In this document: in pieces, positions 55,620 through 56,217 of the stretch
How positions within the stretch are numbered: the stretch's first letter is position 1
Layout: every line of letters begins with the position of its first letter
Virus record (IMG/VR): IMGVR_UViG_3300008255_000098
Length of the DNA stretch: 64,000 bases
Source: a virus
Taxonomy: Duplodnaviria > Caudoviricetes
Reading direction: 5' to 3' (one strand)
The notes under the pieces: generated by a model
Databases searched by the model: none
What the model was told of the DNA's origin: nothing
Seen by the model: only the letters and a program-made list of their open reading frames with translations
Made by a program: the position numbers and the translations under genes

Positions 55620-55664
55620 CTGTGTGTAGCTCAGTCTGGCTCAGAGTGCTCGGTTCGGATCCGA
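55620..55664 (+). tRNA. 5' fragment of a tRNA-Pro(CGG)
   Basis: CTGTGTG acceptor strand, GCTC/GAGT D-arm, CTCGG-TTCGGAT-CCGA, then breaks off. Confidence 0.75.
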
Positions 55665-55698
55665 ATACAAAAATCCGATTTGTTGACATATTGACCTA

Positions 55699-56157
55699 AT
55701 GAAAGAATGCTATAGATGTAAAAAAACTAAAACTGATTTAGAATTTAGTAAAAGTTCTTCACATAAAGATGGGTTGCATTCTTATTGTAAATTTTGTCAA
55801 AAAGAAATGGATCAACAATATTGGCACAATAAGAAGAAAAATCCAAAAAGAATGAAACAAAGACGGCAACTTATCAAACAACGACTTGAAGAAGCACGAG
55901 AATATGTTTTTCAATATTTATTACAACATCCTTGTAAGTGCGGTGAAACAAATCCATTGTTTCTTGAATTCGATCATCTTGGTAAAAAGAAACAATCAAT
56001 TTCCGATATGGTTGGTTCAAAATTAGCTGTTGAATCTATTCGAAGAGAAATAGAACAATGTCAGGTCTTATGTATAAAATGTCATAGATTTAAAACTGCT
56101 AAAGAGTTTGATTGGTGGATTATTAAAAGATATAATAAGTTACAGGGTATGGCGTAA
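55699..56157 (+). CDS. Zinc-finger HNH homing-type endonuclease
   Basis: CYRC..KDG...YCKFC finger; LEFDHL..CQVLCIKCHRFKT. Confidence 0.85.
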   Translation: MKECYRCKKTKTDLEFSKSSSHKDGLHSYCKFCQKEMDQQYWHNKKKNPKRMKQRRQLIKQRLEEAREYVFQYLLQHPCKCGETNPLFLEFDHLGKKKQSISDMVGSKLAVESIRREIEQCQVLCIKCHRFKTAKEFDWWIIKRYNKLQGMA

Positions 56158-56217
56158 TCTGGTAGCGTACCCCATTCGGATTGGGGAGGTTTGGGTTCAA
56201 ATCCCTCCACGCAGACC
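56143..56217 (+). tRNA. Hybrid tRNA-Pro(CGG) whose 3' acceptor strand pairs with the fragment at 55620, not with its own 5' end
   Basis: CAGGGTA cannot pair with CACGCAG, whereas CTGTGTG can; TTCAAAT T-loop; ACCA. Confidence 0.65.

What the first reader, a model, noticed from the sequence alone, without database searches (positions are those of the whole stretch)
55620..56217. tRNA-Pro(CGG) split by an HNH cassette that carries its own tRNA 5' half
Seen: the 5' half (55620-55664) has acceptor strand CTGTGTG, which pairs 7/7 (one G-U) with CACGCAG at 56207-56213, ~550 nt away. The second 5' half (CAGGGTA.., 56143) overlaps the HNH stop codon and cannot pair with that 3' strand. ATCCGAAT (55659-55666) is complementary to ATTCGGAT (56173-56180), so the two ends can be zipped together. 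There is no room for a group I core. Inference: either a protein-spliced or ligase-repaired tRNA intron carrying a homing nuclease (two RNA ligases are in the window), or a homing event captured mid-conversion.
Basis: partly seen in the sequence, partly recalled or inferred. Interest (0 to 1): 0.7.

Follow-up and report, generated by a model that had tools for sequence, protein, structure and literature searches.

The report
tRNA gene broken by homing nuclease
A selfish nuclease gene that normally travels with its own spare tRNA has landed inside a phage proline tRNA gene, leaving a dead front half and a mismatched hybrid tRNA, and the same insertion layout recurs in many other phages.

Summary
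55620-55664 is positions 1-42 of a tRNA-Pro(CGG). Its acceptor strand pairs 7/7 with 56208-56214, about 545 nt downstream. Between them lie a 34-nt leader, an intact HNH gene (55699-56157) and a second tRNA-Pro(CGG) 5' part (from 56143) that overlaps the HNH stop and pairs only 4/7.

I find no support for splicing or ligation: there is no ribozyme match, no unusual fold and no bulge-helix-bulge. The locus best fits a finished but faulty homing product.

This HNH family (PHROG 2255; it includes mycobacteriophage PegLeg gp102) lives in phage tRNA arrays. In at least 21 of 79 IMG/VR loci its stop codon lies in or beside a tRNA. In 11 of 37 loci a hairpin made from the cognate anticodon loop precedes its start, against 0.2% for non-cognate loops. 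In six loci it sits between the two halves of a resident tRNA of the same identity.

In the window the right-hand junction fell inside the carried tRNA. This explains the three acceptor and two T-stem mismatches. An intact Pro(CGG) at 7965-8042 covers the loss.

The scan holds a withheld report on this same stretch and no look-alike elsewhere. No close relative of this phage was found, so its HNH-less allele is unseen.

The parts
55620..55664 (+). Resident tRNA-Pro(CGG) 5' fragment, tRNA positions 1-42 (acceptor 55620-55626, anticodon 55656-55658). It no longer has its own 3' part.
   Evidence: Read. 55624-55664 is 90% identical to positions 5-43 of an intact tRNA-Pro(CGG) in L036. Joined to 56186 onward it is called tRNA-Pro(CGG) by ARAGORN.
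55655..55679 (+). Family-typical hairpin. The left arm is part of the anticodon loop (55655-55660), the right arm is its complement (55674-55679), and the loop is 13 nt. It ends 19 nt before the HNH start. It can extend by two G-U pairs and one G-C pair (55651-55653 with 55681-55683) across one mismatch.
   Evidence: The same kind of hairpin occurs in 11 of 37 non-redundant loci of the family, against 4 of 2261 for non-cognate loops.
55665..55698 (+). Leader of the inserted cassette. The left junction lies at 55664/55665 or slightly earlier, inside the shared loop.
   Evidence: Pairing with position 27 is lost at 55665. The segment has no other copy in the window.
55699..56157 (+). Intact HNH endonuclease gene, 152 aa: an N-terminal four-Cys zinc ribbon plus an HNH core.
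   Evidence: PHROG 2255 E 1e-25. All invariant residues present. AlphaFold2 mean pLDDT 91. 30-45% identity to HNH genes in tRNA arrays of IMG/VR and cultured phages.
56143..56192 (+). Foreign (cassette-borne) tRNA-Pro(CGG) 5' part, positions 1 to about 50: its own acceptor strand, D arm, a complete anticodon arm and the start of the T stem. The first 15 nt encode the last HNH codons and the stop.
   Evidence: 56145-56167 is 96% identical to the tRNA-Pro abutting the HNH in L020. Its anticodon stem pairs internally and differs from copy A. No source exists in the window.
56193..56205 (+). Most likely crossover zone (inner T stem and T loop, a stretch expected to be the same in donor and recipient). 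The junction is bounded only between position 43 and position 63.
   Evidence: Inference. The outer two T-stem pairs and three acceptor pairs are mismatched, as expected if the 5' strands come from the cassette and the 3' strands from the resident gene.
56206..56218 (+). Resident tRNA 3' end: last two T-stem bases, acceptor 3' strand 56208-56214, discriminator A, CCA.
   Evidence: It pairs 7/7 with 55620-55626. 56192-56218 is 96% identical to the 3' end of the window's own tRNA-Pro(TGG) at 7784-7809.
7965..8042 (+). Intact tRNA-Pro(CGG) in the first tRNA array. It makes loss of the broken copy tolerable.
   Evidence: ARAGORN.

Best explanation
The locus is the product of a homing event by a free-standing HNH endonuclease cassette that specialises in phage tRNA genes.

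The cassette has three parts: a leader hairpin built on the anticodon loop of its cognate tRNA, the HNH gene, and a spare tRNA of the same identity joined to the end of the HNH reading frame. It sits inside a resident tRNA gene of that identity, on the 3' side of the anticodon loop, here after position 42. This displaces the resident 5' part upstream and the resident 3' part downstream. Nothing rejoins the halves. The spare tRNA, which has a different anticodon stem and is therefore probably immune to the nuclease, normally takes over.

In this window the right-hand junction fell inside the spare tRNA's T arm instead of beyond it. This happened either during repair or by a later deletion between the two neighbouring T arms. 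As a result the spare tRNA's 5' two-thirds are fused to the resident 3' end. The hybrid has three acceptor and two T-stem mismatches and is most likely dead, as is the orphan 5' fragment. The phage relies on its other tRNA-Pro(CGG).

Shown here: the anatomy, the foreign origin of the insert, and the family-wide layout.
Inferred: that the HNH cuts the resident gene near positions 38-43, the order of events, and that the hybrid is non-functional.
For: 1. Anatomy. The 5' fragment and the far 3' strand pair 7/7, while the intervening tRNA 5' part pairs 4/7. The joined sequence is a clean tRNA-Pro(CGG).

2. Origins. Copy A resembles a real Pro(CGG) (L036, 90%). The 3' end resembles the window's own Pro(TGG) (96%). 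The 5' part of copy B resembles the tRNA-Pro that abuts the HNH in L020 (96%) and has no source in the window.

3. Family habit. Nearly all of 79 IMG/VR relatives lie in tRNA arrays. The stop codon lies in or within 9 nt of a same-strand tRNA in at least 21 loci, and in 7 of these the stop is exactly tRNA positions 8-10 (plus Rfam). The same holds in cultured phages: PegLeg and Francesca overlap by 10 nt, and Mildred21, Tribute and MarvelLand abut.

4. Split residents recur. Of 19 orphan T arms downstream of the HNH, 8 have a 7/7 partner followed by T8 within 170 nt upstream of it, against 3.8% in cross-locus controls. Six are convincing: the window, L001, L024, L027, L030 and L038. Where the anticodon can be read, resident and spare tRNA share identity (Pro, Thr, Cys, Arg).

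5. L001. Its 41-nt fragment is followed by an intact tRNA-Thr in 28 other contigs and is broken only in L001, exactly after position 42 as in the window.

6. Spare tRNAs are whole genes with covarying acceptor stems, so the window's hybrid is the exception.

7. Homing in this family makes mosaic tRNAs. Dandelion (with HNH) differs from Catera and Cali (without) by the HNH plus replaced flanking tRNAs. One junction lies inside tRNA-Pro and gives a T-T acceptor mismatch.

8. The cognate anticodon-loop hairpin is present in the window and in 10 other loci. It is also present in cultured phages Sushi23 and Tribute.
Against: - No close relative of this phage was found in IMG/VR, JGI metagenomes or INPHARED. 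The HNH-less allele and the putative parent form (whole spare tRNA followed by a 3' fragment) are therefore unseen for this locus.
- The right junction cannot be placed more finely than positions 43-63. One of the two T-stem mismatches (50-64) also occurs in the window's own Pro(TGG), so the T-loop crossover rests mainly on one extra mismatch.
- Cleavage by the HNH was not and cannot be tested here.
- The HNH tree is poorly resolved.
- The Rfam score of copy B is above the gathering score, so residual function is not excluded.
Confidence: 0.78

Rival explanations
1. The cassette is built to carry only a tRNA 5' part (positions 1-42) and to rebuild a working gene with the resident 3' part, as integrating elements do with tRNA 3' ends. 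Here it entered a diverged tRNA-Pro, so the acceptor strands no longer match.
For: Both copies end at the same tRNA position (42/43), and base 43 fits either copy. The whole 43-76 stretch is about 90% like the window's own Pro(TGG) 3' part. L001 is broken at exactly 42/43.
Against: Other family members carry whole spare tRNAs with self-consistent, covarying acceptor stems. In L001, L027 and L038 the resident 3' fragment lies separately downstream. No other locus shows an upstream fragment pairing with the 3' end of the abutting tRNA.
Confidence: 0.12
2. A functional split tRNA: the roughly 520-nt insert is removed from the transcript, by an unknown ribozyme, a protein endonuclease plus the phage RNA ligases, or trans-assembly. 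This would yield a mature tRNA-Pro(CGG) from 55620-55664 plus 56186-56218.
For: Perfect acceptor complementarity is retained. The insertion is exact at 42/43, so the join gives a perfect anticodon stem. A conserved hairpin lies next to the 5' junction. Two RNA ligase genes are present in the window. The long-range acceptor helix appears in the minimum-energy fold.
Against: No Rfam intron or ribozyme hit. The fold is no better than shuffles (z -0.48). The ORF fills the insert. The break is not at a known tRNA intron site. Sister elements L027 and L030 lack positions 39-43. The family carries a spare tRNA, which makes rejoining unnecessary. Acceptor complementarity is expected anyway if the flanks come from a recently intact gene.
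Confidence: 0.04
3. A local rearrangement unrelated to the nuclease, such as unequal recombination or slippage between two tandem tRNA-Pro genes that merely flank an HNH gene.
For: Same-identity tRNAs on both sides of the HNH are common (L035, L021, L045, L008). tRNA arrays are repeat-rich.
Against: It needs at least two events to move the resident 3' part behind copy B. It does not explain why the same split layout with matching acceptor halves recurs around this one HNH family at about ten times the control rate. It also does not explain why the break sits at position 42 in two unrelated tRNAs.
Confidence: 0.04

Closest known systems
HNH endonucleases in actinophage tRNA arrays (e.g. Mycobacterium phage PegLeg gp102, Dandelion gp160); Pope et al. 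2014, as cited in PMC5966550 and PMC7589089
   Same: Same protein family: 34-41% identity over at least 90% of the window protein. They lie between tRNA genes, are present or absent among close relatives, and come with swapped flanking tRNAs. The PegLeg ORF ends 10 nt inside tRNA-Met.
   Different: The papers I could read describe only an association with tRNA repertoire diversity. I found no description of a split resident tRNA, a spare tRNA joined to the ORF, or an anticodon-loop hairpin. Pope 2014 itself was not available.
Phage T4/T6 SegB, a free-standing GIY-YIG homing endonuclease in the tRNA gene cluster (PMC2330249; PMC13096335)
   Same: A free-standing nuclease inside a phage tRNA cluster. 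It cuts the tRNA gene region of related phages, carries flanking tRNA genes with it, and can duplicate tRNA genes.
   Different: A different nuclease superfamily. It sits between genes and is not described as splitting a tRNA gene or overlapping one.
Group I introns with homing endonucleases in tRNA anticodon loops (established knowledge: cyanobacterial tRNA-Leu and tRNA-fMet introns)
   Same: A nuclease-bearing insert inside a tRNA gene near the anticodon, flanked by the two gene halves that would serve as homology arms.
   Different: No ribozyme core, and the break is in the 3' anticodon stem rather than the loop. Function is kept by a spare gene, not by splicing.
Integrating elements that target tRNA genes and carry a copy of the displaced end (established knowledge: phage and island attP sites in tRNA 3' ends)
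   Same: Insertion into a tRNA gene is compensated by tRNA sequence carried on the element, leaving a displaced fragment.
   Different: These use an integrase and replace the 3' end. Here an HNH nuclease with homologous repair brings a 5' part or a whole gene.
Split tRNA genes of Nanoarchaeum and relatives (established knowledge)
   Same: The 5' and 3' halves of one tRNA are encoded apart.
   Different: Those have complementary leaders forming a bulge-helix-bulge that the archaeal splicing endonuclease cuts. No such motif or enzyme context is seen here.

Membership tests
HNH (His-Me finger) endonuclease | Profile match to an HNH family | tested here: met
   PHROG 2255 'HNH endonuclease' E 9.8e-26, plus PHROGs 3106 and 4234. 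Relatives in GenBank are annotated as HNH endonuclease.
HNH (His-Me finger) endonuclease | Pfam HNH (PF01844) match | tested here: inconclusive
   The window protein has no Pfam hit at E up to 1. Four of 11 family members hit PF01844 weakly, best E 2e-4.
HNH (His-Me finger) endonuclease | Conserved Asp-His, paired Cys-x2-Cys zinc ligands and distal His | tested here: met
   Invariant D92, H93, C79, C81, C125, C128 and H129 in alignment A2.
HNH (His-Me finger) endonuclease | Beta-beta-alpha-metal fold | tested here: inconclusive
   The model is confident (pLDDT 91). Foldseek gives only insignificant HNH hits such as PacI, Cap5 and GVE2. The best VIA-align match is the Hpy99I zinc ribbon, Z 5.2 over 38 residues.
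Free-standing homing endonuclease gene | Present or absent among close relatives, with co-converted flanks | tested here: met
   Met for the family: Dandelion and ET08 carry it, while most of the roughly 200 related mycobacteriophage records matched, including Catera and Cali, lack it, and the flanking tRNAs are replaced. For the window's own locus there are no relatives to compare.
Free-standing homing endonuclease gene | Cuts the allele that lacks it | not testable with these tools
   Needs an enzyme assay or phage crosses.
Group I intron in a tRNA gene | Recognisable catalytic core | tested here: not met
   No Rfam intron hit at E up to 10 over 54500-58500. Only 34 nt lie outside the ORF and the tRNA-like part. 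Fold z-score is -0.48.
Group I intron in a tRNA gene | Insertion in the anticodon loop, with a U before the 5' splice site | tested here: not met
   The break lies after position 42 (an A) in the 3' anticodon stem.
Archaeal-type split or intron-containing tRNA | Bulge-helix-bulge at the junctions | tested here: not met
   By inspection. The only inter-half helix (55659-55666 with 56174-56181) has the 5' junction inside it and no 3-nt bulges.
Functional tRNA (copy at 56143-56218) | Paired 7-bp acceptor stem and 5-bp T stem | tested here: not met
   Acceptor 4/7 and T stem 3/5. Not called by ARAGORN in context. The MFE fold lacks an acceptor stem. The Rfam score of 33.4 is nevertheless above the gathering score of 29.

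The most novel reading that the evidence does not exclude
These HNH cassettes may be a distinct kind of mobile element: a homing element that needs neither an intron nor an intein, because it destroys its target tRNA gene and delivers a nuclease-immune spare copy. In the most novel reading, the leader arm complementary to the anticodon loop is functional. It would either act as an operator that mimics the homing site or help set which tRNA gene this 150-aa nuclease attacks. The second option would explain how one small protein family has moved among Thr, Met, Lys, Cys, Glu, Gly, Pro and Arg tRNA genes.
Probability: 0.12. Interest if true: 0.9.

Novelty: new variant of a known kind. Interest (0 to 1): 0.6.

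Why it matters
On its own the window's locus is a scar and has little consequence for the phage, which keeps another tRNA-Pro(CGG). Its value is what it shows about the family.

Homing endonucleases in phage tRNA arrays are known, and they are thought to shuffle and amplify tRNA genes that help phages resist tRNA-cleaving host defences (PMC13096335). The layout found here gives a concrete mechanism for how whole tRNA genes are swapped, duplicated and broken in such arrays. That layout is insertion into the cognate tRNA gene beside the anticodon loop, a spare tRNA joined to the nuclease gene, and a hairpin matched to the anticodon loop.

It would also be a way, other than an intron, an intein or an intergenic site, for a homing nuclease to avoid harming its host. 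The arrangement is testable in cultured phages: Sushi23, Tribute, PegLeg, and Dandelion against Catera.

There is also a practical point. tRNA finders miss these hybrids and fragments, so phage tRNA counts near such genes are unreliable.

Tried and rejected
- Group I intron, other ribozyme, or structured RNA: no Rfam hit and a fold no better than shuffles.
It is a by-product of the palindromic loop plus stem that both copies share.
- Close relatives of the locus. All of these gave nothing:
  - blastn against INPHARED.
  - The HNH protein and a neighbouring protein against IMG/VR.
  - Exact DNA words of copy A in IMG/VR and JGI metagenomes.
  - A word of copy B in IMG/VR, which found only L020's own contig.
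- The window's whole genome is not held.
- An nhmmer profile of tRNA 5' halves was too insensitive and missed even copy A.
- The HNH tree was too poorly resolved to show co-descent of nuclease and tRNA identity, although several sister pairs share a tRNA identity.
- Syntenic HNH-less alleles for L001 were not found among the 28 contigs with the intact tRNA-Thr. The L027 fragment occurs only in its own contig.
- Structure searches did not place the HNH core.
- Forcing cloverleaf energies on mismatched stems was not informative.
- Pope et al. 2014 could not be read.

Full report
**What is there**

The window looks like part of a very large phage. It has 39 ARAGORN tRNAs in two arrays. All long ORFs are on one strand and GC is about 35%. 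It encodes asparagine synthase, two class II aminoacyl-tRNA synthetases, a NAMPT-like enzyme, a patatin and RNA ligases, and it gives phage-type hits for a head protease and a polymerase exonuclease. No genome is held for it.

The finding lies at the head of the second array.
- 55620-55664 is a tRNA-Pro(CGG) from position 1 to position 42.
- 55665-55698 is a 34-nt leader.
- 55699-56157 is an intact 152-aa HNH gene.
- 56143-56218 is a second tRNA-Pro(CGG)-like sequence that overlaps the last 15 nt of the ORF.

The 3' acceptor strand (56208-56214) pairs 7/7 with the first copy and 4/7 with the second.

**Where the pieces come from**
- Copy A is 90% identical to positions 5-43 of an intact tRNA-Pro(CGG) in an unrelated huge-phage contig, L036.
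- The last 27 nt (56192-56218) are 96% identical to the 3' end of the window's own tRNA-Pro(TGG).
- Positions 3-25 of copy B are 96% identical to the tRNA-Pro that directly follows an HNH of the same family in L020. They have no counterpart elsewhere in the window.
- Joining 55620-55664 to 56186 onward gives a tRNA with a perfect acceptor stem and a perfect anticodon stem. ARAGORN calls it and RNAfold folds it with the acceptor helix.

So one resident tRNA gene has been interrupted after position 42 by foreign DNA that ends in the front of another tRNA-Pro(CGG).

**What the nuclease family does elsewhere**

A profile of the HNH and ten homologues found 444 relatives in IMG/VR, of which 79 loci were kept. 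Almost all sit inside tRNA arrays. Three features recur.

1. The reading frame ends in or beside a same-strand tRNA.
   - This holds in at least 21 loci. In seven of them the stop codon is exactly tRNA positions 8-10.
   - GenBank annotation shows the same in cultured phages. PegLeg gp102 overlaps tRNA-Met by 10 nt and Francesca gp152 overlaps tRNA-Phe by 10 nt. Mildred21, Tribute and MarvelLand abut a tRNA within 1-10 nt.

2. A hairpin lies 7-25 nt before the start codon. Its left arm is the anticodon loop of the associated tRNA and its right arm is the complement.
   - With a 6-mer criterion it is present in 11 of 37 non-redundant loci, against 4 of 2261 locus-loop pairs for non-cognate loops.
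   - Cultured Sushi23 (Thr) and Tribute (Gly) have it.
   - The window has it at 55655-55679.
   - Arms of different Lys-type hairpins differ outside the loop yet stay complementary.

3. The cassette often lies between the two halves of a resident tRNA.
   - Of 19 orphan T arms downstream of the HNH, 8 have a perfectly pairing 7-mer followed by T8 within 170 nt upstream of it. The cross-locus control rate is 3.8%.
   - Six cases are convincing: the window (Pro), L001 (Thr), L024 (Arg), L027 and L030 (Cys), and L038 (Pro).
   - Where it can be read, the spare tRNA joined to the HNH has the same anticodon as the broken resident gene but a different anticodon stem.
   - For L001, the same 41-nt 5' part is followed by an intact tRNA-Thr in 28 other viral contigs. 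It is broken only in L001, exactly after position 42 as in the window.
   - In L027 and L030 the fragments lack positions 39-43, so they cannot be rejoined into a normal tRNA.

**Direct evidence that this family moves and makes hybrid tRNAs**

Among Bixzunavirus mycobacteriophages, most of the roughly 200 matched records lack the HNH and a few carry it. Aligning Dandelion (with HNH) to Catera and Cali (without) shows the HNH in the 14-nt Pro/Trp spacer. Both neighbouring tRNAs are replaced by diverged versions. The left junction lies inside tRNA-Pro at about nucleotide 11, which creates a T-T mismatch in its acceptor stem.

The literature already links HNH genes with tRNA arrays and with tRNA repertoire change (PMC5966550, PMC6409571, PMC7589089, PMC8421152). 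It also shows that T4/T6 SegB, a different nuclease, cuts tRNA gene regions and amplifies tRNA genes (PMC2330249, PMC13096335). I found no description of the split-plus-spare layout or of the hairpin. Pope et al. 2014 was not available to me.

**Reading of the window**

The usual form is: resident 5' fragment, hairpin, HNH, whole spare tRNA, resident 3' fragment. Spare tRNAs elsewhere are whole genes with covarying acceptor stems.

In the window the spare tRNA runs straight into the resident 3' end. If the junction lies in the T loop, the 5' strands of the T and acceptor stems come from the cassette and the 3' strands from the resident gene. That accounts for the mismatches Rfam flags. It could have arisen during repair, through a crossover in the spare tRNA rather than beyond it. 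It could also have arisen later, by deletion between two T arms a few tens of bases apart, as they are in L027 and L038.

I cannot exclude that this cassette carried only positions 1-42 and was meant to reuse the resident 3' part (rival 1). In either case the present product is a mismatched hybrid plus an orphan fragment, and an intact tRNA-Pro(CGG) exists at 7965-8042.

**Why not splicing or ligation**

There is no intron or ribozyme match. The 608-nt stretch folds no better than shuffled sequence. The long-range acceptor helix appears in that fold, as it must for two halves of one former gene. The ORF fills the insert, and the break is not at any known tRNA intron position. RNA ligases are standard equipment for tRNA repair in large phages. 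I give this reading about 4%.

**Limits**

No near relative of this phage was found, so the empty site and the parent form are unseen. Nuclease activity, its cut site and the role of the hairpin are inferred. The hairpin could be an operator that mimics the homing site (by analogy with I-TevI autorepression, from my own knowledge), a message-stabilising or processing structure, or a by-product of repair.

Noticed in passing
window 56108-56136: A sigma-70-like promoter match (10 of 12 positions, 17-nt spacer) lies inside the 3' end of the HNH gene. Its position would start transcription at about 56143, the first base of the hybrid tRNA.
   Followed up: no
L001-L079 (IMG/VR), L082, L117: A perfect 7-16 bp hairpin lies 7-25 nt upstream of the HNH start, built from the cognate tRNA's anticodon loop and its complement. 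It is seen for Thr, Met, Lys, Cys, Glu, Gly and Pro. Its function is unknown. MarvelLand (L121) has a 12-bp Cys-type hairpin although its neighbouring tRNA is Asn.
   Followed up: partly
L001, L003, L008, L013, L028, L034, L035, L085 (PegLeg), L119 (Francesca): The HNH stop codon is the conserved U8-A9-G10 of the downstream tRNA. RNase P cleavage of the precursor would therefore remove the stop codon from the HNH message, which may limit nuclease expression.
   Followed up: no
L024 2445-3047: A complex mosaic around the HNH. It contains a 5' fragment with an Arg(ACG) loop and a tRNA-like piece without a D arm that shares its T arm and acceptor with the tRNA-Arg(TCT) at 3604. It also has a further fragment whose 3' acceptor strand pairs with the upstream 5' fragment.
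   Followed up: partly
L007 2233-2316, L011 2367-2459, L021 3006-3092, L030 2322-2408, L035 2367-2450: Lys, Cys and Glu tRNAs of 84-93 nt near these HNH genes; the three I read (L007, L021, L035) have long variable arms. These isotypes are normally class I.
   Followed up: no
L081 (Dandelion) 1501-2010: The annotated HNH CDS reads through the whole of tRNA-Trp. In ET08 and Shifa the same HNH is not annotated at all.
   Followed up: no
It could be a footprint of a lost cassette.
   Followed up: partly
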